Source of the DNA: a virus
Length of the DNA: 6,017 bases
Reading direction: 5' to 3' (one strand)
IMG/VR virus record: IMGVR_UViG_3300014556_000002
Location: 1 to 6,017 of that record
In this document: positions 1 to 6,017 of the stretch, in pieces
Numbering within the stretch: the stretch's first letter is position 1
Layout: each line of letters opens with the position of its first letter
Position numbers and translations under genes: made by a program
Notes under the pieces: model-generated
Database searches by the model: none
The model's input: only the letters and a program-made list of their open reading frames with translations
What the model was told of the DNA's origin: nothing

Positions 1-99
1 AACAGAATCCAAGAAAGCAAGGAACAAATTGCATCCAGCAACATAAAAGAAGCCCAAGCCAATGCAAGAAAAGCAGTGGAAGAATTCAACCAAGCAATG
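1..99. repeat. Terminal redundancy copy 1 (circular-contig overlap), identical to 5919-6017
   Basis: Base-by-base comparison by eye: aacagaatccaagaaagcaagg...gaattcaaccaagcaatg is present at both ends, 99/99 identical. Confidence 0.97.
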
Positions 100-520: not shown

Positions 521-1588
521 ATGTGTTATTTTCCAATCAAAATCAAGAACAAGCGGTTTGTACCTACAAAAAAAAATGGGTACGAACCGCCCGTTTGTAC
601 AGACGAACGACTAAAATATATCGAAGTAGAGTGCGGATATTGCTTCGAATGCAGGAAGAAAAAAAGAAACGCATGGAGAGTAAGGAACTTCGAACAACTA
701 AGAGAAACACCTACAGCGATATTCTTCACGGGGACGGTGTCTCCGGAAAGATACAATCATATCAAAGAAAAGTACAACCTAAAGACGGACAACGAAATAA
801 TCACAAAAATACACAGGCTATTCCTCGAAAGAATAAGGAAAGAAACAGGGAAGAGCATGAAACATTGGTGTGTAACAGAAAAAGGACACACCAATACAAG
901 AAGAATACATTTGCACGGAATATTCTATGCACCAAACGGAATGACACAATTCAAGTTGATAAACATATTAAGAAACAACTGGATAGATGGTTATTGCTAC
1001 AACGGAAAATACTGCAACGAAAAGACAATAAACTATGTATCAAAGTACATGACAAAAAAAGACGAAGACAATCCCGAATATACAGGAAAAGTACTATGTT
1101 CTCCAGGACTAGGAGCAGGATACATAAAACGAATAGGGAAAAGGCACGAATGGAACGAAGAAAATACAAAAGAAGACTACTACACAAGGCAAGGAACATA
1201 TATCGCATTACCAAAGTACTACAAATACAAGCTGTTCACAGAAGACCAAAGGGAACAACTATGGATATACCGAGAAGACTCCGGAGAAAAGTTCGTAGGG
1301 AACCTCAAAATAAAAATCACAGACGAAGAAAGCGAAGAATACTATAACACGCTAAGAAAACAACACAATGAAGAAGGAATAAAAATACATAAAGACGATA
1401 TCAAAGAAATCATTATCAAGAAATTACAAAACAGAAGAGATAAAAACAAAAAAAGTAAGGCGCAAAGACTTTTCGAATTATACGGGAAAGACCTAAGAAA
1501 AACAATAAACAATAACCTAAAGCTAGCGAGAGACATCGAAGAGTTCAAAAAAATCTACGAAGAAGAAAAATATTTTTTAAGGGTATAG
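521..1588 (+). CDS. VP4: VP4 replication initiator (HUH rolling-circle endonuclease, phiX174 gpA-like)
   Basis: 355 aa. Motif 1-like IFFTGTV lies at aa 67-73. The HUH motif is RIHLHGIFY, with H130-L-H132 at nt 908-916. The double-tyrosine catalytic motif YVSKYMTKK (Y172 at nt 1034-1036, Y176) resembles the phiX174 gpA active-site motif as I recall it (YVAKYVNK). The N-terminal Cys cluster (C2, C26, C38-x2-C41-x2-C44) is typical of microvirus VP4. The ATG lies 1 nt after the VP2 stop. Confidence 0.95.
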   Translation: MCYFPIKIKNKRFVPTKKNGYEPPVCTDERLKYIEVECGYCFECRKKKRNAWRVRNFEQLRETPTAIFFTGTVSPERYNHIKEKYNLKTDNEIITKIHRLFLERIRKETGKSMKHWCVTEKGHTNTRRIHLHGIFYAPNGMTQFKLINILRNNWIDGYCYNGKYCNEKTINYVSKYMTKKDEDNPEYTGKVLCSPGLGAGYIKRIGKRHEWNEENTKEDYYTRQGTYIALPKYYKYKLFTEDQREQLWIYREDSGEKFVGNLKIKITDEESEEYYNTLRKQHNEEGIKIHKDDIKEIIIKKLQNRRDKNKKSKAQRLFELYGKDLRKTINNNLKLARDIEEFKKIYEEEKYFLRV

Positions 1589-1591
1589 CAG

Positions 1592-1620
1592 CGACGGAAG
1601 AGAAAAGCTCTCCGGGAAAT
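1592..1620 (+). repeat. Hairpin module A: CGACGGA...CTCCGGGAAAT
   Basis: Stem 1595-1602 (cggaagag) pairs with 1608-1614 (ctctccg): 7 bp with one bulged A and a 5-nt loop. It shares the exact 7-mer CGACGGA and the CTCC(C/G)G(G)AAAT tail with module B at 1688-1706. Confidence 0.6.
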
Positions 1621-1676
1621 AGCTTACGCGTTGCAGACATCAAGCTTAAAGGATGGCAGTACTATAGCCTACGGCT

Positions 1677-1710
1677 CTGATTTCAGTCGACGGAGTCTCC
1701 CGAAATTCAG
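1677..1710 (+). repeat. Hairpin module B: outer stem ctgatttc/gaaattcag enclosing CGACGGAGTCTCCCGAAAT
   Basis: 1677-1684 pairs with 1702-1710 (8 bp, one bulged T). The inner sequence GGAGTCTCC is a near-palindrome and GTCGAC is a palindrome. The CGACGGA 7-mer at 1688-1694 is identical to 1592-1598. Confidence 0.55.
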
Positions 1711-1719
1711 GGGGTGTAT

Positions 1720-1738
1720 AACCATGTTTCACATGGTT
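1720..1738 (+). other. Perfect 7-bp stem / 5-nt loop hairpin (aaccatg-tttca-catggtt)
   Basis: Direct reading: 1720-1726 is the exact reverse complement of 1732-1738. No T-run follows, so it is not a classic terminator. Confidence 0.6.
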
Positions 1739-1741
1739 GCC

Positions 1742-1759
1742 AAAAGTTACTAAAAGTTA
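1742..1759 (+). repeat. Tandem direct repeat AAAAGTTA x2 with 10-nt period
   Basis: c-aaaagtta-c / t-aaaagtta-t at 1742-1749 and 1752-1759. The spacing is one helical turn. It lies between the hairpins and the promoter. Confidence 0.55.
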
Positions 1760-1795: not shown

Positions 1796-1827
1796 TTTGT
1801 CGGGCAAAAAAAGGTTGTATACGTTTG
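1796..1827 (+). promoter_or_regulatory. Bacteroides/Bacteroidota-type promoter: -33 TTTG (1796-1799) and -7 TAcgTTTG (1820-1827), 20-bp spacer
   Basis: It matches the published Bacteroides consensus TTTG / TAnnTTTG. As I recall, the reported spacing is about 19-21 bp. It sits about 28 nt upstream of the ATG at 1856, with an A-rich leader. The -33 element is embedded in a 22-bp imperfect palindrome at 1784-1805. Confidence 0.55.
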
Positions 1828-1855: not shown

Positions 1856-2143
1856 ATGAAACATCGTCAATTCAAAACAGAATGTTTTTGTAGGGCAATA
1901 ATCAACGAAAAGACATTCGTATGCAACAATCTCAAAGAAATGAAAACGAAAATCTACCATCTCGGAACAAGAGAAAAAAAATACGAGGTAGACGTAGTAG
2001 ACAAAAAAACAGGAATTACCAACGACATCTATTTAATGAAGTATACAAGAGAGGGGCCGATATTCCAAAAACAGATATACTCAAGATGGAAAGAAGAACA
2101 GGCAAAAGCAAGAATTCAACAACTAACAATAAACATAGTATAA
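1856..2143 (+). CDS. Hypothetical protein, 95 aa (ORFan; first gene downstream of the promoter)
   Basis: It has the AATTATG start context shared with three other genes. Amino-acid composition is diverse (C, F, Y, W, I, V present). The stop overlaps the next ATG (TAATG at 2141-2145). I recognise no family. A second frame (1921-2226) is also open across it. Confidence 0.55.
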   Translation: MKHRQFKTECFCRAIINEKTFVCNNLKEMKTKIYHLGTREKKYEVDVVDKKTGITNDIYLMKYTREGPIFQKQIYSRWKEEQAKARIQQLTINIV

Positions 2144-2226
2144 TGAAAACAGAAAAAATCAAAAAAATCATCACAAACCTAATCAAATTACTAAAATGGC
2201 TATATACTTTGATATCAAAGAAATGA
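2143..2226 (+). CDS. Candidate 27-aa amphipathic mini-protein MKTEKIKKIITNLIKLLKWLYTLISKK (speculative)
   Basis: The ATG overlaps the upstream stop (TAATG), which suggests translational coupling. This is the only open frame covering the otherwise unassigned 2144-2195. It overlaps the peptidase start by 31 nt. It is too short for statistical support. Confidence 0.3.
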   Translation: MKTEKIKKIITNLIKLLKWLYTLISKK

Positions 2227-2576
2227 CAGATTCGCAAACAGCGAAACAGCATCATATAGACAATACTCCGACCAAAGAAGTAATAGATAACCTAAAAAAA
2301 GTAATGTATGTACTTGACATAGTAAGAGCACACATGGGAAAACCTATACTTGTCAACAGTGGATACAGGTGCAAAAAACTAAACGAAATGGTAGGAGGAG
2401 TTCAAAATTCAATGCATACCAAAGGACTAGCAGCAGATATCCGAACAAGAGAGAAAGAGGATATAAACATAATGTACGAGTTCCTAAAAGAAAATCAAAA
2501 AAAACTGAAAATTATAGAGCTTCTCAACTATGGGACTTTCATTCATATAGGAGTAAGCGAAACATTAACAATTTAA
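2196..2576 (+). CDS. Zinc D-Ala-D-Ala carboxypeptidase-like peptidoglycan peptidase, M15 family (Peptidase_M15_3 / LAS-type); putative endolysin
   Basis: 126 aa with the family signature SGYRCKKLNEMVGGVQNSMHTKGLAADI...FIHIGV. The H-x6-D...H zinc triad is H74 (nt 2415-2417), D81 (2436-2438) and H117 (2544-2546). There is no N-terminal signal peptide or TM segment. Confidence 0.85.
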   Translation: MAIYFDIKEMTDSQTAKQHHIDNTPTKEVIDNLKKVMYVLDIVRAHMGKPILVNSGYRCKKLNEMVGGVQNSMHTKGLAADIRTREKEDINIMYEFLKENQKKLKIIELLNYGTFIHIGVSETLTI

Positions 2577-2588
2577 ATTTACAAAATT

Positions 2589-2804
2589 ATGGTAGAAAAT
2601 TTCTTTAAAATCCTTCCAACGAACACGGAAGAAAACGATTACGTAATCGTATGCGGAAATGTTCAAGCATCGAAAGAGCATTTCAAATCAGTAAAAGCTG
2701 CACAAGAATACATCAACACCAAACCATGGGATTTGATTTTTACAATTTCCTATGCAGCACACAAAGCGCTAAATGCACAAGAAGCAGAAGAAAAACAAAA
2801 GTAA
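2589..2804 (+). CDS. Hypothetical protein, 71 aa (ORFan)
   Basis: It has the same AAAATTATGG start context as the capsid gene. It sits in a 12-nt and a 22-nt gap between neighbours. Composition is diverse. I recognise no motif. Confidence 0.55.
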   Translation: MVENFFKILPTNTEENDYVIVCGNVQASKEHFKSVKAAQEYINTKPWDLIFTISYAAHKALNAQEAEEKQK

Positions 2805-2826: not shown

Positions 2827-4797
2827 ATGGCAATTACAAGAACTATCGGGAAAAACACCCTAGGTGACAACAACAAGATGCATGTGAGACTCAGAGAATA
2901 CGACATGTCTTCACAGAATCTAAGTTACGTATTTCGCAGCACAATGGGTGTCGGAATGCTCGTGCCATTCATGAAAATCGTATGTCAAAAGGGCGATATC
3001 TTCGACATCAAACTGATAAACAAAACAATGACACATCCAACGCTAGGGCCGCTGTTCGGAAGTTTCAAACTACAGCACTTTATCTTCACGGCAGGATTCA
3101 GACTGTACAACAGCTGGTTACACAACAACAGAACCGGTATCGGAATGAAGATGAGTGATATCAAACTTCCAATAATACTAAGAGGAGGCCCAACAGACAC
3201 AAACGATGAGATAAAATACAATCCTTCATCATTATACTCATATCTTGGATGGAAAGGGTGCAAACAAACAGGTACAGACACAGCAGGGAAAAATGCAATA
3301 CCATGGCTAATATATCTTGACATATTCAAAAACTACTTTGCCAACACTCAAGAAGACAAATTCTACATAATCGCAGGAGGCACAGAAGCAACAGTAACAA
3401 TCGCCCAAGAAAACGAAAAAACATTCACAGTAGAAGTAGGGAAAAATGCAGACCAAACATGGACCGGACCAATGGGAAGCACCGCAACTCTAAAAGCAGG
3501 GGACAACGTAGAAGACTACGCAAGTTTCTGGAAAAGCGTAAAAATAAAATTCTATAACCCATCAACCAATCAAAGCAAAGAATCGTATGTAAATTACCTA
3601 ACTTCAAACGTCAACGGGCAAACCATCAAAACGGATAAAATAACAACAGTATTCACGGCAGGAAACAGCCTAAACGGATATACTACGATAAAAGGAATAT
3701 ATGTAGGAAAATTCCCAGGCGACGAAACACTATACAAAAATTCACTAAAACCAATCCTCAATGAACAAAAACTAGAAACTCTTGACAAAATAAGAGACGA
3801 AATTCTGAAAAATCCAGGAAACGTAGCTCTAGAAATGGCAGGAACAAAAGACCAAGACGTAAACGGACTATTCAACACATTAAGAGTAGCTTCAACAAAC
3901 AAACTAGGAGGACTAGTGTTAAAAACGTACGACAGTGACATATTCAACAACTGGGTAAAAACAGACTGGATAGACGGAGAGAACGGTATTTCAAAAGTAA
4001 CAGCGTTAAAACCAGACGAAGACGGAACAATCACGATGGACGCACTAAACTTACAGCAAAAAGTTTACAATATGTTGAACCGCATTGCTGTATCGGGTGG
4101 AACATATCGCGACTGGTTGGAAACAGTATACACAGCAGGAAGATATCTCGACAGACCAGAAACACCAGTATTCCAAGGCGGAATGAGTCAAATGATAGAG
4201 TTTGACGAAGTAGTGGCAACAACAGGAAACGCAGAAGGACAAGCGTTAGGAGAGCTAGCAGGTAGAGGATACGCAAGACAACCAAATACCAGCGGCAGAC
4301 TCCACTTCCAAGTCGAAGAACCCGGATATGTCATGGGAATCATGGCAATCACTCCGATGATAGACTATTCACAAGGCAACGATTTCGACCTCAACCTATT
4401 CTCAATGGACGACTTACACAAGCCGGCATTAGACGGTATCGGATACCAAGACCTAATGAACGAGCAACGCGCATGGTGGACAGCAAAACAAGAGGGAACA
4501 ACAATCGTCGACACGACACCCGGAAAATCAGTTGCATGGATTGACTACATGACCAATTTCAACAAAACATTCGGGAACTTTGCATCCGGAGGAAGTGAAG
4601 ACTTCATGGTACTAAATCGAAACTACGAGAGAGATGACAGCAACGGTATTTCCAACGGGTCAACATATATCAATCCACAGGAACATATCGACATCTTTGC
4701 AGATACAGCACTAGACAGCCAGAACTTCTGGGTGCAGACAGCCTGCGAAATCACGAGACGCGGAAATTATTCTGCAAAACAAATTCCCAATTTCTAA
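2827..4797 (+). CDS. VP1: VP1 major capsid protein (Microviridae F-protein family), 656 aa
   Basis: The N-terminal pattern SYVFRSTMGVGMLVPFMKIVCQKGDIFDIK...THPTLGPLFGSFKLQHFIFTAGFRLYNSWLHN follows the conserved microvirus MCP layout (G-LVP...GD-F...P...P...K...FF...R-L...W). A later block LQQKVYNMLNRIAVSGGTYRDWLETVYTAGRYLDRPETPVFQGG is also typical. I prefer the start at ATG 2827 (MAITRT) over ATG 2773. The 2773 start would overlap the 71-aa ORF, and 2827 carries the AAAATTATGG context. Confidence 0.95.
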   Translation: MAITRTIGKNTLGDNNKMHVRLREYDMSSQNLSYVFRSTMGVGMLVPFMKIVCQKGDIFDIKLINKTMTHPTLGPLFGSFKLQHFIFTAGFRLYNSWLHNNRTGIGMKMSDIKLPIILRGGPTDTNDEIKYNPSSLYSYLGWKGCKQTGTDTAGKNAIPWLIYLDIFKNYFANTQEDKFYIIAGGTEATVTIAQENEKTFTVEVGKNADQTWTGPMGSTATLKAGDNVEDYASFWKSVKIKFYNPSTNQSKESYVNYLTSNVNGQTIKTDKITTVFTAGNSLNGYTTIKGIYVGKFPGDETLYKNSLKPILNEQKLETLDKIRDEILKNPGNVALEMAGTKDQDVNGLFNTLRVASTNKLGGLVLKTYDSDIFNNWVKTDWIDGENGISKVTALKPDEDGTITMDALNLQQKVYNMLNRIAVSGGTYRDWLETVYTAGRYLDRPETPVFQGGMSQMIEFDEVVATTGNAEGQALGELAGRGYARQPNTSGRLHFQVEEPGYVMGIMAITPMIDYSQGNDFDLNLFSMDDLHKPALDGIGYQDLMNEQRAWWTAKQEGTTIVDTTPGKSVAWIDYMTNFNKTFGNFASGGSEDFMVLNRNYERDDSNGISNGSTYINPQEHIDIFADTALDSQNFWVQTACEITRRGNYSAKQIPNF

Positions 4798-4809
4798 AAC
4801 AATACAATT

Positions 4810-5160
4810 ATGTTAAGAAAAAGAAACCTCAAAAGATACAACCCATTCGAAAAATATGCAACAAAATACGAAGAGGGTGAAAATATTCTTACAAAGATCA
4901 GACGAATACTGGATGAGAACGAACCATTAACAGACGGAGCACCGCTAATTTACACACCAAAAGAGGACGGAGTAAGACCAGAATTCGATATCCGGACAGA
5001 CAAATGGCAGATAGCAATCAATGCCATGGACAGAGTAAACGCGTACAAGCTGACAGACTACACAAAGAACGGACGAAATCCGGAAATGAAAGAACCGGAA
5101 AAAGAAGGCGAAACAACAACGGGTGAAACAACCAATACGGGAGACAACTCGGCTGCGTAA
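4810..5160 (+). CDS. Small conserved microvirus protein, 116 aa; possible internal scaffolding (VP3-like) role
   Basis: It starts 12 nt after the VP1 stop, with the AATTATG start context. The motif LIYTPKEDGVRPEFDIRTDKWQIAINAMD resembles a block I recall from small proteins encoded next to MCP in gut microviruses. It has an acidic, Thr-rich tail. The function is inferred from size and synteny only. Confidence 0.6.
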   Translation: MLRKRNLKRYNPFEKYATKYEEGENILTKIRRILDENEPLTDGAPLIYTPKEDGVRPEFDIRTDKWQIAINAMDRVNAYKLTDYTKNGRNPEMKEPEKEGETTTGETTNTGDNSAA

Positions 5161-5303: not shown

Positions 5304-6017
5304 ATGTCAAATTTTAAAAACCCAAAAATCATGAGTTTCGGATTAGGAATCAGTGGAGCAATCGAAGGTGCATCAGAAGGAGTATCAATAGGTAGCGCAA
5401 TACCGGGAGTAGGAACAACAGTCGGCGGAATTATCGGCGGAGGATTAGGGCTACTGGGAGGACTATTCGGAAGCGGGAATAGTACAAAGAAACAAAAAGA
5501 GCTAATGGAAAAAGCTTGGGAATACGAAAAGGAAGGGATGGGAATGCAGTACCAATATGGACAGATGGCTGCAAATGAAGCACAAAGAAGAAATCTCGAA
5601 ATGTGGGAATCAACCAACTTTGAACAGCAACGCAAGCACATGGAAAACGCAGGTCTAAGCGCAGCGCTAATGTATGGAGGAAGTGGAGCAGGAAGTACAA
5701 GCACGGCAGGAGGACAAGCAACACAACCAAGCGGTCCAACAACCAATCCAGTAGGAATGGCACTTCAATACAAACAAATAGAGCAGCAAAGTGAAGCGAT
5801 AAAATCCCAAACAATACTTAACCAAGCAGAAGCGGCAAAAGCTCTTGCAGAAGCCAAAAAAACAAGTGGAGTCGACACAAAAAAAACAGAATATGAAATC
5901 AAATGGCAAGAAATTGAAAACAGAATCCAAGAAAGCAAGGAACAAATTGCATCCAGCAACATAAAAGAAGCCCAAGCCAATGCAAGAAAAGCAGTGGAAG
6001 AATTCAACCAAGCAATG
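5304..6017 (+). CDS. VP2: VP2 minor capsid / DNA pilot protein, N-terminal part (runs off the window end; continues at 100-519; whole gene 1,134 nt = 377 aa)
   Basis: My own translation is open from ATG 5304 (in-frame stop TAA at 5286-5288) to base 6017. It reads MSNFKNPKIMSFGLGISGAIEGASEGVSIGSAIPGVGTTVGGIIGGGLGLLGGLFGSG...QMAANEAQRRNLEMWESTNFEQQRKHMENAGLSAALMYGGSGAGSTS... This shows a Gly-rich hydrophobic N-terminus plus the conserved AQ..R....W..TN...Q..M..AGLN..LMYGG block of microvirus VP2. It is missing from the ORF track because it has no stop inside the window. Confidence 0.9.
   Translation, partial: MSNFKNPKIMSFGLGISGAIEGASEGVSIGSAIPGVGTTVGGIIGGGLGLLGGLFGSGNSTKKQKELMEKAWEYEKEGMGMQYQYGQMAANEAQRRNLEMWESTNFEQQRKHMENAGLSAALMYGGSGAGSTSTAGGQATQPSGPTTNPVGMALQYKQIEQQSEAIKSQTILNQAEAAKALAEAKKTSGVDTKKTEYEIKWQEIENRIQESKEQIASSNIKEAQANARKAVEEFNQAM
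5919..6017. repeat. Terminal redundancy copy 2, identical to 1-99
   Basis: See copy 1. Confidence 0.97.

What the first reader, a model, noticed from the sequence alone, without database searches (positions are those of the whole stretch)
2196..2576. Endolysin-type M15 peptidoglycan peptidase encoded by a microvirus
Well-studied Microviridae lyse through a single-gene inhibitor of cell-wall synthesis (phiX174 E blocks MraY). They carry no muralytic enzyme, and gokushoviruses have no assigned lysis gene. Here an intact LAS/M15 zinc peptidase (SGYR...H74-x6-D81...H117) sits in the variable region between rep and the capsid gene. This implies either an enzymatic lysis strategy like that of dsDNA phages or a host-derived acquisition. 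I recall scattered reports of M15 peptidases in metagenomic microviruses, but to my knowledge the function has not been shown experimentally. The protein has no signal peptide or signal-anchor-release (SAR) domain and no obvious holin partner, so how it reaches the periplasm is unexplained.
Basis: partly seen in the sequence, partly recalled or inferred. Interest (0 to 1): 0.75.

Follow-up and report, generated by a model that had tools for sequence, protein, structure and literature searches.

The report
Microvirus M15 cell-wall peptidase gene
A small single-stranded-DNA gut phage carries an intact zinc cell-wall peptidase of the kind tailed phages use to burst their hosts; this has been known in microviruses since 2012, but a conserved, unannotated 27-codon gene overlapping its start may be the missing helper that lets the enzyme reach the cell wall.

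Summary
ORF 2196-2576 (+) encodes a 126-aa Peptidase_M15_3 (PF08291) LAS zinc peptidase with every invariant family residue. Its AlphaFold model is very confident and has the LAS fold. It lies between Rep and the capsid gene of a complete 5,918-nt circular, Alpavirinae-like gut microvirus.

The finding is not new. Roux et al. 2012 described such peptidases in Alpavirinae and Gokushovirinae as horizontally acquired putative endolysins. Kirchberger et al. 2022 list them as lysis-associated accessory genes. More than 130 GenBank microviruses annotate a "peptidase". More than 115 protein clusters at 80-91% identity show this exact gene in a large, mostly unnamed clade.

The best explanation is a cytoplasmic, signal-less endolysin that needs a membrane lesion to reach the murein.

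New here:
- An unannotated 27-aa cationic amphipathic ORF (2143-2226) starts on the upstream gene's stop codon and overlaps the M15 start.
- It is intact in 9/9 relatives.
- It occupies the slot where peptidase-less relatives encode a ~65-aa lipoprotein-like membrane protein.
- Similar mini-ORFs abut the peptidase in 10 of 20 other microviruses (about 0.34 expected).

It is the best candidate for a holin substitute, but this is unproven.

The parts
2196..2576 (+). Gene for a 126-aa single-domain Peptidase_M15_3 (LAS-type zinc peptidoglycan peptidase), the putative endolysin
   Evidence: PF08291 E=1.7e-20. PHROG 894 endolysin E=4.9e-31. AlphaFold2 pLDDT 96.4, pTM 0.89. Foldseek best PDB hit 1LBU, TM 0.71, then Hedgehog-N, VanY, LdcB, ChiX and LysB4. 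More than 115 clusters at 80-91% identity, nearly all 126 aa, most on ~5.9-kb contigs or shorter fragments. dN/dS 0.37.
2367..2546 (+). Active-site codons: R58 (2367-2369), S72/H74 (2409-2417), D81 (2436-2438), E108 (2517-2519), Y112 (2529-2531), H117 (2544-2546)
   Evidence: R58, S72, H74, D81 and H117 are invariant in 67 diverse homologues. Those five plus E108, Y112 and F115 are invariant in 118 clade members. The predicted hairpin 106-111/116-120 puts E108 on the same sheet face as H117 (this is an inference from strand register, since no coordinates were available).
2143..2226 (+). Unannotated 27-aa ORF MKTEKIKKIITNLIKLLKWLYTLISKK. It is cationic (+7) and amphipathic. Its ATG overlaps the stop of the upstream gene (TAATG) and its last 31 nt overlap the M15 start. 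It is the candidate membrane-active lysis partner.
   Evidence: It is intact, exactly 84 nt and free of indels in 9/9 relatives, including one whose M15 is only 63% identical, while the other two frames carry stops. pN/pS is 0.30 against 0.68 and 0.78 off-frame. Best 18-residue hydrophobic moment is 0.55-0.74 across the nine orthologues, 0.63 for the window's own. It is the positional counterpart of 62-72-aa membrane/lipoprotein-like genes in peptidase-less relatives. No gene caller called it.
1856..2143 (+). 95-aa ORF upstream, first gene of the variable region. It is conserved in relatives with and without the peptidase (motif EGPIF.K.IY..W.E). Function unknown.
   Evidence: Homologues in L147-L150 and L152. 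The L147 homologue carries the GenBank note 'similar to VP5'. No Pfam or PHROG hit.
2589..2804 (+). 71-aa ORF between M15 and the capsid gene. It is a core gene of this lineage, not a lysis-cassette member.
   Evidence: Homologues directly precede the capsid gene in the peptidase-less relatives L144 and L147-L154. Changes among clade members are mostly synonymous. It has no transmembrane segment.
1796..1827 (+). TTTG-N20-TAcgTTTG, a match to the Bacteroides-type -33/-7 promoter consensus, 29 nt upstream of the 95-aa ORF (weak lead)
   Evidence: It is the only match in the window, but 0.82 matches are expected by chance. It is conserved in relatives. The consensus itself comes from my own knowledge of Bacteroides promoters.
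521..1588 (+). Replication initiator (VP4/Rep), context
   Evidence: PF23343 E=7e-10 and phrog_942 E=6e-23.
2827..4797 (+). Major capsid protein (VP1), context
   Evidence: PF02305 and phrog_514 E=2e-33. Start as called on the source contig. Best GenBank relatives are at most 56% identical.
5304..6017 (+). 5' part of the pilot protein VP2 gene (377 aa; it continues at 100-519 across the circular junction). It has a Gly-rich hydrophobic N-terminus.
5919..6017 (.). 99-nt terminal direct repeat, identical to 1-99: an assembly overlap of a 5,918-nt circular genome
   Evidence: The ENA contig of the same genome has a 119-nt overlap and the same 5,918-nt unit.

Best explanation
The gene encodes the phage's endolysin. 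It is a 126-aa, single-domain, zinc-dependent LAS peptidase of the Peptidase_M15_3 family that cuts the peptide part of the host's murein. The virus is a 5.9-kb Alpavirinae-like gut microvirus, probably infecting Bacteroidaceae. The gene was drawn from the endolysin pool of Bacteroidales and their tailed phages. The protein has no signal or SAR sequence, so it accumulates folded in the cytoplasm and can act only after the inner membrane is breached. The most likely agent of that breach is a small membrane-active product encoded beside it, and the best candidate is the conserved 27-aa cationic amphipathic ORF at 2143-2226. That ORF is translationally coupled to the upstream gene, overlaps the M15 start, and sits where peptidase-less relatives encode a ~65-aa lipoprotein-like membrane protein. 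Shown here: family membership, intact zinc site, LAS fold (predicted), conservation across a large clade, synteny, absence of an export signal, and conservation of the mini-ORF. Inferred: muralytic activity (by homology with the tested phage ST79 enzyme), a role in lysis, and the helper role of the mini-ORF.
For: Identity: PF08291 E=1.7e-20; PHROG endolysin E=4.9e-31; all nine invariant family columns present; pLDDT 96.4; LAS-fold matches to 1LBU, Hedgehog-N, VanY, LdcB, ChiX and LysB4 and to many viral M15A peptidases, including microviral ones. Function by homology: a 132-aa PF08291 endolysin of Burkholderia phage ST79 is muralytic on zymograms and on chloroform-permeabilised Gram-negative cells, and sits in a holin/LysB/LysC cassette (PMC5025407). 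The closest named homologues are endolysins of Bacteroides siphoviruses and crAss-like phages, some annotated next to holins. Selection: more than 115 clusters at 80-91% identity, nearly all exactly 126 aa; 34 invariant residues across 118 members; dN/dS 0.37. No export signal. Mini-ORF: intact in 9/9 relatives, pN/pS 0.30 against 0.68/0.78 off-frame, strongly amphipathic, charge +7. It has the same start-on-stop arrangement and slot as the membrane-protein genes of relatives. Analogous 24-36-aa ORFs with a basic N-terminus and a hydrophobic body abut the peptidase in 8/12 genomes and then in 2/8 fresh genomes, against 0.20 and 0.14 expected. Literature agrees on a lysis role.
Against: There is no experimental evidence for any microviral M15 peptidase. 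The family's modal Glu before the last zinc ligand (45/67) is Tyr here; E108 may substitute, but I could not measure distances. ORF27 is not hydrophobic enough to span a membrane (KD15 about 1.2), it is only 27 aa, and its coding signal rests on 16 non-overlapping codons. The mini-ORF criteria were set post hoc and held in only 2/8 fresh genomes, both related to earlier examples. One relative (Dulem virus 214) has a similar mini-ORF without any peptidase, so the peptide is not peptidase-specific. A basic 27-aa peptide could instead be a J/VP8-like DNA-packaging protein. Off-frame dN/dS controls for M15 (0.48, 1.16) are not far from 0.37.
Confidence: 0.7

Rival explanations
1. Enzymatic 'amurin'. 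The peptidase never leaves the cytoplasm. It destroys peptidoglycan precursors there (D-Ala-D-Ala, UDP-MurNAc-peptides or lipid II stem peptides, as VanX/VanY-type M15 enzymes do). This starves wall synthesis so that growing cells lyse at the septum, an enzymatic version of the phiX174 E strategy that needs no holin.
For: The protein has no signal peptide, and no transmembrane-grade ORF lies on the coding strand. The fold is shared with VanY and LdcB carboxypeptidases and with the 1LBU DD-carboxypeptidase. This would fit the single-gene-lysis logic of very small phages.
Against: The closest relatives are ordinary dsDNA-phage endolysins that sit in holin cassettes, and one is shown to digest sacculi. 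There is no significant hit to the VanX or VanY Pfam families. From general knowledge, tailed phages accumulate M15 endolysins (for example T5) in the cytoplasm without premature lysis. A conserved small membrane-active ORF is present next to the gene.
Confidence: 0.1
2. Accessory role. Lysis is triggered by another product: the 27-aa peptide acting alone as a single-gene lysis peptide, or the pilot protein VP2, or an unrecognised overprinted gene. The peptidase only speeds up wall breakdown or widens host range, so it is dispensable.
For: The capsid-nearest relatives all lack the peptidase and must lyse without it. Dulem virus 214 has a similar amphipathic 31-aa ORF and no peptidase. Peptidases are patchily distributed in microviruses.
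Against: The gene is strictly retained with an intact active site across more than 115 clusters of this clade, which argues for a substantial fitness contribution. In the window clade the ~65-aa membrane protein of relatives has been replaced rather than supplemented.
Confidence: 0.15
3. Not a lysis gene. The peptidase serves entry or superinfection functions (local wall digestion, or remodelling of the receptor environment), or it is a recently captured passenger gene with no role.
For: No experiment assigns a function. M15-type domains also occur in virion-associated and tail proteins of tailed phages (large multi-domain hits).
Against: A T=1 microvirus virion has no known room or mechanism for packaging an extra 14-kDa enzyme, and the protein has no virion-attachment domain (the whole length is the catalytic domain). 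Conservation across a large clade excludes a neutral passenger.
Confidence: 0.05

Closest known systems
M15_3 peptidases of human-gut Alpavirinae and Gokushovirinae (Roux et al. 2012, PMC3394797) and 'lysis-associated accessory' peptidases of microvirus Families 2, 7 and 14 (Kirchberger et al. 2022, PMC9239249)
   Same: Same Pfam family, same kind of virus, same proposed role (horizontally acquired endolysin), same Bacteroidetes affinity for Alpavirinae, and the same location in the variable region next to small unknown ORFs.
   Different: The sequence is only 29-43% identical to the 19 GenBank microviral peptidases sampled, and the capsid is at most 56% identical to any GenBank record. This is an undescribed lineage. 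The overlapping 27-aa ORF is not mentioned in those papers, and Kirchberger et al. explicitly omit overprinted genes.
Endolysin of Burkholderia phage ST79 (peptidase M15A, PF08291; PMC5025407)
   Same: Same Pfam family, similar size (132 against 126 aa), single domain, no signal peptide, 1LBU-like fold. Experimentally muralytic on Gram-negative murein.
   Different: It comes from a tailed dsDNA phage with an explicit holin/LysB/LysC cassette. The window has no transmembrane holin or spanin genes.
Endolysins of Bacteroides siphoviruses (B124-14, B40-8) and crAss-like phages (cr4_1, cr114_1)
   Same: These are the closest named homologues: 44-54% identity over 77-94% of the protein, with the same presumed host group.
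   Different: They are encoded in 45-100-kb dsDNA genomes. To my knowledge they are uncharacterised biochemically.
Streptomyces albus G zinc D-Ala-D-Ala carboxypeptidase (PDB 1LBU), prototype of MEROPS M15A / LAS enzymes
   Same: Best solved-structure match (TM 0.71; sequence E=7e-5, profile E=3e-12), with the same SxHxxGxAxD and Arg motifs.
   Different: 1LBU is a secreted 213-aa enzyme with an extra N-terminal peptidoglycan-binding domain. Its bond specificity need not carry over.
phiX174 protein E and other single-gene lysis proteins (amurins)
   Same: Both are lysis functions of a very small phage.
   Different: E is a membrane-anchored, non-enzymatic MraY inhibitor overprinted in gene D. 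Here the effector is a soluble hydrolase in its own reading frame.
Serratia ChiX/ChiW and phage phiKT gp28 'disruptin' (own knowledge for the biology; ChiX appears as a structural hit)
   Same: ChiX is a signal-less M15-type L-Ala-D-Glu endopeptidase that a small holin-like partner lets across the inner membrane. gp28 is a cationic amphipathic peptide that acts in lysis. Both are precedents for the proposed M15 plus small-peptide pairing.
   Different: There is no sequence similarity to ORF27. ChiW is a true transmembrane holin. gp28 acts on the outer membrane and is about twice as long.

Membership tests
Peptidase_M15_3 (Pfam PF08291; MEROPS M15 subfamily A-like; LAS superfamily) | Profile match above the curated gathering score over most of the domain | tested here: met
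   73.6 bits against a cut-off of 23.2, residues 4-118 on profile positions 2-107 of 108.
Peptidase_M15_3 / LAS | Zinc ligands H-x6-D and a C-terminal His, within the SxHxxGxAxD motif | tested here: met
   S72-M-H74-T-K-G77-L-A79-A-D81 and H117. All are invariant in 67 diverse and 118 clade sequences.
Peptidase_M15_3 / LAS | Conserved substrate-binding or transition-state Arg (SGYR) | tested here: met
   R58 is invariant and aligns with GFR of 1LBU.
Peptidase_M15_3 / LAS | General base (Glu/His/Asp) shortly before the last zinc ligand (Shh E177, VanX E181 type) | tested here: inconclusive
   The family's modal Glu (45/67) is Tyr112 here. This 'Y/H...F/Y-x-H' variant occurs in 20/67 homologues and in most of the microviral peptidases sampled. 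E108 is invariant in the clade and, by strand register, faces the same side as H117. No coordinates were available to measure distances.
Peptidase_M15_3 / LAS | LAS fold (central antiparallel sheet with flanking helices) | tested here: met
   AlphaFold2 pLDDT 96.4. Foldseek probability 1.00 to 1LBU (TM 0.71), Hedgehog-N, VanY, LdcB and ChiX. This is a prediction, not a solved structure.
Peptidase_M15_3 / LAS | Zinc binding and hydrolysis of a murein peptide bond | not testable with these tools
   Needs purified protein, metal analysis and muropeptide LC-MS.
Canonical holin-dependent phage endolysin | Soluble muralytic enzyme without a secretion signal | tested here: met
   No hydrophobic N-terminus (KD19 max 0.97). 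The N-terminus is part of the folded domain.
Canonical holin-dependent phage endolysin | Adjacent holin gene encoding at least one transmembrane domain | tested here: not met
   No + strand ORF of 25 aa or more reaches transmembrane-grade hydrophobicity apart from the VP2 N-terminus and a capsid segment. ORF27 is amphipathic, not membrane-spanning. So it may work like a holin-endolysin pair, but it is not a canonical cassette.
Canonical holin-dependent phage endolysin | Spanin or other outer-membrane disruptor for Gram-negative hosts | tested here: not met
   No lipobox ORF occurs in the window's variable region, unlike the predicted lipoprotein in the same slot of relatives.
SAR or signal-peptide endolysin | N-terminal signal-anchor-release or cleavable signal sequence | tested here: not met
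   The N-terminus MAIYFDIKEMTDSQTAKQHH is acidic or polar. The 143-147-aa variants in databases are upstream-ATG or frameshift calls, not hydrophobic extensions.
Single-gene lysis protein (phiX174 E-type amurin) | Small membrane protein, usually overprinted, that inhibits a murein-synthesis enzyme | tested here: not met
   M15 is a soluble hydrolase in its own frame. No E-like transmembrane ORF was found. Whether ORF27 acts as a single-gene lysis protein on its own is untested.
VanX / VanY resistance-type M15 peptidases | Profile match to PF01427 or PF02557 | tested here: not met
   Neither family appears among the Pfam hits at E<=1. There is only fold-level similarity to VanY (TM about 0.5).

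The most novel reading that the evidence does not exclude
The 27-aa cationic amphipathic ORF (2143-2226) and the M15 peptidase form a minimal two-gene lysis cassette of an ssDNA phage. The peptide would be the smallest known holin substitute, permeabilising the inner membrane without a transmembrane domain to release a folded endolysin. More broadly, unannotated 24-36-aa membrane-active peptide genes abutting the peptidase would be a recurrent, convergent feature of about half of peptidase-carrying microviruses. The slot they occupy would be the long-sought lysis module of non-Bullavirinae microviruses; in peptidase-less relatives it holds a ~65-aa predicted lipoprotein.
Probability: 0.3. Interest if true: 0.6.

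Novelty: new member of a known kind. Interest (0 to 1): 0.3.

Why it matters
How microviruses outside the phiX174 group lyse their hosts has never been shown experimentally, although they are among the most abundant phages of the gut. This genome adds nothing new about the peptidase itself. It does offer a compact, testable pair: a 126-aa enzyme and an overlapping 27-codon ORF, conserved in hundreds of related genomes. Both could be synthesised and expressed to ask whether an ssDNA phage uses a holin-endolysin-like strategy and what the minimal membrane-breaching partner looks like. A small, signal-less M15 enzyme active on Bacteroidales murein could also interest enzybiotic work.

Tried and rejected
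- IMG/VR scans for relatives found nothing useful. The single-protein query gave no relative. An exact DNA pattern gave none. The alignment was too diverse to seed a scan. A degenerate motif returned almost only dsDNA phages.
- A GTDB genome scan for a prophage copy, which would have named the host, found none.
- tblastn with the 27- and 28-aa peptides found nothing, not even the self-hit. The queries were masked as low complexity, so this is uninformative.
- ORF71 (2589-2804) was rejected as a lysis partner. It is a core gene present in peptidase-less relatives and has no membrane segment.
- A -1 frameshift fusion of ORF27 to M15 was rejected. The M15 frame carries stops between the two starts in L002, L006 and L010.
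- The N-terminally longer database forms (143-147 aa) are upstream-ATG calls or come from an error-rich long-read concatemer. They are not signal sequences.
- Rfam found no RNA family in the window.
- The Bacteroides-type promoter motif is not significant on its own: 0.82 matches are expected by chance.
- The conserved non-coding element 1589-1770 has no significant fold (z = -0.83).
- The slot-X membrane protein of relatives gave only weak PHROG 'holin' hits (E = 7.5e-4 and 0.012). Its homologues are all close microviral ones, one auto-named 'Lipoprotein'.
- The strict mini-ORF rule did not generalise well: 2 of 8 in a fresh set.
Full report
**1. The observation**

The window carries an ORF at exactly 2196..2576 (+), 126 aa plus TAA. 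It matches Pfam PF08291 (Peptidase_M15_3) at E=1.7e-20, with 73.6 bits against a curated cut-off of 23.2, over residues 4-118. It matches PHROG 894 'endolysin' at E=4.9e-31. By sequence alone it reaches the Streptomyces albus zinc D-Ala-D-Ala carboxypeptidase 1LBU (E=7e-5), and a family profile reaches it at E=3e-12.

I checked the codons. PF02557 (VanY) does not match.

**2. The genome**

The window ends in a 99-nt copy of its first 99 nt. The same genome in ENA carries a 119-nt overlap. Both give a 5,918-nt circle.

All genes are on one strand, in this order:
- Rep 521-1588
- 95-aa ORF 1856-2143
- M15 2196-2576
- 71-aa ORF 2589-2804
- capsid 2827-4797
- 116-aa ORF 4810-5160
- pilot protein VP2, 5304 across the junction to 519

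These assignments rest. The capsid is at most 56% identical to any GenBank phage record. Its nearest relatives are faecal microviruses of mammals, with Parabacteroides-named records also among the hits. The only nucleotide-level match to the genes is 76% over part of Rep. This is an Alpavirinae-like gut microvirus from a lineage without a close GenBank representative.

**3. The protein**

A 67-sequence alignment of divergent homologues has nine invariant columns, and the window protein has all of them: N23, R44, R58, N63, G68, S72, H74, D81 and H117. The exhaustive search counted 8,915 clusters at 50% identity with E<=0.001.

In 118 members of the window's own clade (51-100% identity), 34 residues are invariant. 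They include those nine plus E108, Y112 and F115.

AlphaFold2 with that alignment gives pLDDT 96.4 and pTM 0.89. Foldseek places the model in the LAS fold:
- 1LBU, TM 0.71
- Hedgehog N-domains
- VanY
- LdcB
- the Serratia L-Ala-D-Glu endopeptidase ChiX
- phage endolysin LysB4

Among predicted viral structures the best matches are M15A peptidases of tailed phages and of several microviruses.

One caveat concerns the general base. The family's modal Glu a few residues before the last zinc ligand aligns with the catalytic-type Glu of Hedgehog, and here it is Tyr112. This is a recurrent coupled variant ('Y/H...F/Y-x-H' instead of 'E...W-x-H'). It occurs in 20 of 67 homologues and in most of the microviral peptidases I sampled. 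In the window's version a Glu four residues earlier (E108) is invariant, and by the predicted hairpin register it lies on the same face as H117. I could not measure distances, so the identity of the general base is open. The breadth of the variant argues against inactivation.

Pairwise dN/dS among eight clade members is 0.37.

**4. How common it is**

More than 115 protein clusters at 80-91% identity were found. Nearly all are exactly 126 aa, and most are on contigs of about 5.9 kb or on shorter fragments. Six fetched relatives show the same order: Rep, 95/96 aa, M15, 71/76 aa, capsid, 116 aa, VP2.

In GenBank, tblastn finds the protein in 593 phage records. These include 82 'bajarodmic virus', 24 'Microviridae' and 20 'Microvirus' entries, usually annotated 'peptidase' and usually lying between Rep and the capsid gene.

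**5. What is already published**

- Roux et al. 2012 reported PF08291 genes in 11 human-associated Microviridae. They argued for repeated horizontal transfer involving Bacteroidetes and their phages, proposed an endolysin role, and noted that 5 of the 11 are next to an unknown ORF (PMC3394797).
- Kirchberger et al. 2022 describe peptidases as lysis-associated accessory genes conserved between VP1 and VP4 in several families. They state that they omitted overprinted genes (PMC9239249).
- Cultured microviruses of Roseobacter carry M15 peptidases presumed to act in lysis (PMC11499846; PMC9865509).
- A PF08291 endolysin of the tailed phage ST79 has been purified and shown to be muralytic (PMC5025407).
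- I found no experiment on a microviral enzyme.

**6. Origin**

The window's enzyme is closer to endolysins of Bacteroides siphoviruses and crAss-like phages (44-54% identity, 88-98 bits) than to the 19 other GenBank microviral peptidases sampled (29-43%, 32-86 bits). The next cluster outside the clade is named 'peptidase M15 [Bacteroidaceae bacterium]' on contigs up to 159 kb. This fits acquisition from the Bacteroidaceae host or phage pool, and a Bacteroidaceae host. No prophage copy was found in GTDB species genomes.

**7. The export problem and the small ORF**

The protein has no signal or SAR segment. No coding-strand ORF of 25 aa or more has a transmembrane-grade segment except the Gly-rich N-terminus of VP2 and a stretch of the capsid protein.

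A 27-codon ORF (2143-2226, MKTEKIKKIITNLIKLLKWLYTLISKK) begins on the stop codon of the 95-aa gene (TAATG; ATGA in relatives), and its last 31 nt overlap the M15 start. No gene caller reported it. The evidence that it is a real gene:
- It is intact and exactly 84 nt in 9 of 9 relatives, including one whose M15 is only 63% identical. The other two frames of the same stretch carry stops in several of them.
- A relative at 51% M15 identity has a different but equally amphipathic ORF in the same place.
- In the 16 non-overlapping codons, pN/pS is 0.30 against 0.68 and 0.78 off-frame.
- Net charge is +7 or +8 and the best 18-residue hydrophobic moment is 0.55-0.74, comparable with melittin scored the same way.

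**8. Tests of the small-ORF idea**

In 12 peptidase-carrying microvirus lineages, 8 have a 24-36-aa ORF with a basic N-terminus and a hydrophobic or amphipathic body directly abutting the peptidase. Often its ATG lies on the peptidase stop codon. Dinucleotide shuffles predict 0.20.

Because the criteria were set after seeing the data, I applied them unchanged to eight fresh genomes. Only 2 of 8 qualified (0.14 expected), and both are relatives of earlier examples. Several others have 37-52-aa transmembrane ORFs nearby, and some have nothing detectable. The association is real but not universal.

Relatives chosen by capsid similarity all lack the peptidase, and they keep the 95-aa and 71-aa gene homologues. 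In the slot between them, with the same start-on-stop arrangement:
- Seven encode a 62-72-aa protein with a basic N-terminus, one transmembrane segment, a conserved Cys (lipobox-like in four) and a hydrophilic tail.
- One (Dulem virus 214) has a 31-aa amphipathic ORF like the window's.
- One (L144) has none.

The slot protein has only close microviral homologues, one auto-named 'Lipoprotein', and only weak PHROG 'holin' hits.

So ORF27 is the positional counterpart of a small membrane protein that is general to this group. The 71-aa ORF is a core gene, not a lysis partner.

**9. Most likely mechanism**

The enzyme is a signal-less endolysin that waits in the cytoplasm and degrades murein peptides once the inner membrane is breached. 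The breach most plausibly comes from the adjacent small membrane-active product.

My probabilities are roughly as follows:
- M15_3 peptidase: 0.97.
- Lysis role: about 0.75.
- ORF27 as the helper: about 0.3.

Rivals are cytoplasmic destruction of precursors (0.1), an accessory role with another primary lysis effector (0.15), and a non-lysis or passenger role (0.05). The evidence for and against each is listed in the Rival explanations section.

**10. Verdict**

This is a new member of a known kind. The part worth following up is the conserved, unannotated mini-ORF and the 'slot' it shares with membrane-protein genes of relatives. Together they turn the open question of microvirus lysis into a simple expression experiment.

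Noticed in passing
window 2143-2226 (+): An unannotated 27-aa cationic amphipathic ORF. It starts on the stop codon of the 95-aa gene and overlaps the M15 start by 31 nt. It is intact in 9/9 relatives, and pN/pS is 0.30 against about 0.7 off-frame.
   Followed up: yes
L147 2231-2434, L148 5747-5953, L149 5289-5486, L150 5612-5800, L151 4924-5142, L153 5598-5804, L154 5452-5655: Peptidase-less relatives encode a 62-72-aa predicted lipoprotein or single-pass membrane protein in the same slot as ORF27 plus M15. It has a basic N-terminus, a TM segment, a conserved Cys (C-T-x-S-L in five of seven) and a hydrophilic tail. It is 'hypothetical' in GenBank, and one is auto-named 'Lipoprotein' in UniRef. 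It could be the lysis or superinfection-exclusion protein of this microvirus group.
   Followed up: partly
L008 6040-6126, L136 6244-6333, L009 5918-6007, L137 6420-6515, L139 5810-5896, L141 5719-5811, L156 5743-, L160 6164-, L146 (reverse strand) 4246-4335: Mostly unannotated ORFs of 27-31 aa beginning MK(K/E/S), with a hydrophobic helix that is often rich in small residues (SALxGALG-like). They directly abut the peptidase gene in unrelated GenBank microviruses. The count is 10 of 20 genomes against about 0.34 expected from shuffles.
   Followed up: yes
window 1567-1751 (extends to about 1860 within the clade): The non-coding stretch after Rep is 87-97% identical among clade members whose genes are more diverged. 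It recurs at 73% identity after Rep in Microvirus mar40. It is 87% identical to a stretch of the otherwise unrelated Dulem virus 257, where it lies in the opposite orientation relative to the genes. There is no Rfam hit and no significant fold (z = -0.83), only a local hairpin near 1722-1740. It could be an origin, a priming site or a recombination module.
   Followed up: partly
window 1-99 and 5919-6017: A 99-nt terminal direct repeat shows that the window is a complete 5,918-nt circular genome plus an assembly overlap. Naive circularisation of the window duplicates 33 aa of VP2.
   Followed up: yes
M15 residues 105-119 (window 2508-2552) and homologues: PF08291 splits into two coupled variants around the last zinc ligand: 'LIxE..W-x-H' (45/67) and 'x-Y/H..F/Y-x-H' (20/67). 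The window and most of the microviral peptidases sampled carry the second. Some members have no Glu at either candidate position.
   Followed up: partly
window 2589-2804 (+): A 71-aa ORF directly upstream of the capsid gene is conserved in all relatives, with or without the peptidase (motif ..I.IGN..A....F.....A...I....W.LI..). It has no family hit. It is a core gene of unknown function.
   Followed up: partly
window 5304-5450 (+): VP2 begins with a Gly-rich hydrophobic stretch (GLGISGAIEGASEGVSIGSAIPGVGTTVGGIIGGGLGLLGGLFG). This is the only membrane-like segment on the coding strand apart from a capsid stretch, and it is conserved in relatives' pilot proteins.
   Followed up: no
window 1796-1827 (+): TTTG-N20-TAcgTTTG matches the Bacteroides -33/-7 promoter consensus 29 nt upstream of the 95-aa ORF and is conserved in relatives. 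On its own it is not significant (0.82 matches expected).
   Followed up: partly
whole window: The coding strand is strongly A-rich (AT skew 0.28-0.57), so hydrophobic codons are scarce on it. The many 'hydrophobic' ORFs on the opposite strand are compositional artefacts.
   Followed up: no
L003 (8,827 nt) and L005 (11,618 nt): Two public contigs of this clade are concatemers (about 1.5 and 2 genome units). L005 is riddled with frameshifts, which explains the 143-aa 'extended' peptidase in the protein database.
   Followed up: partly
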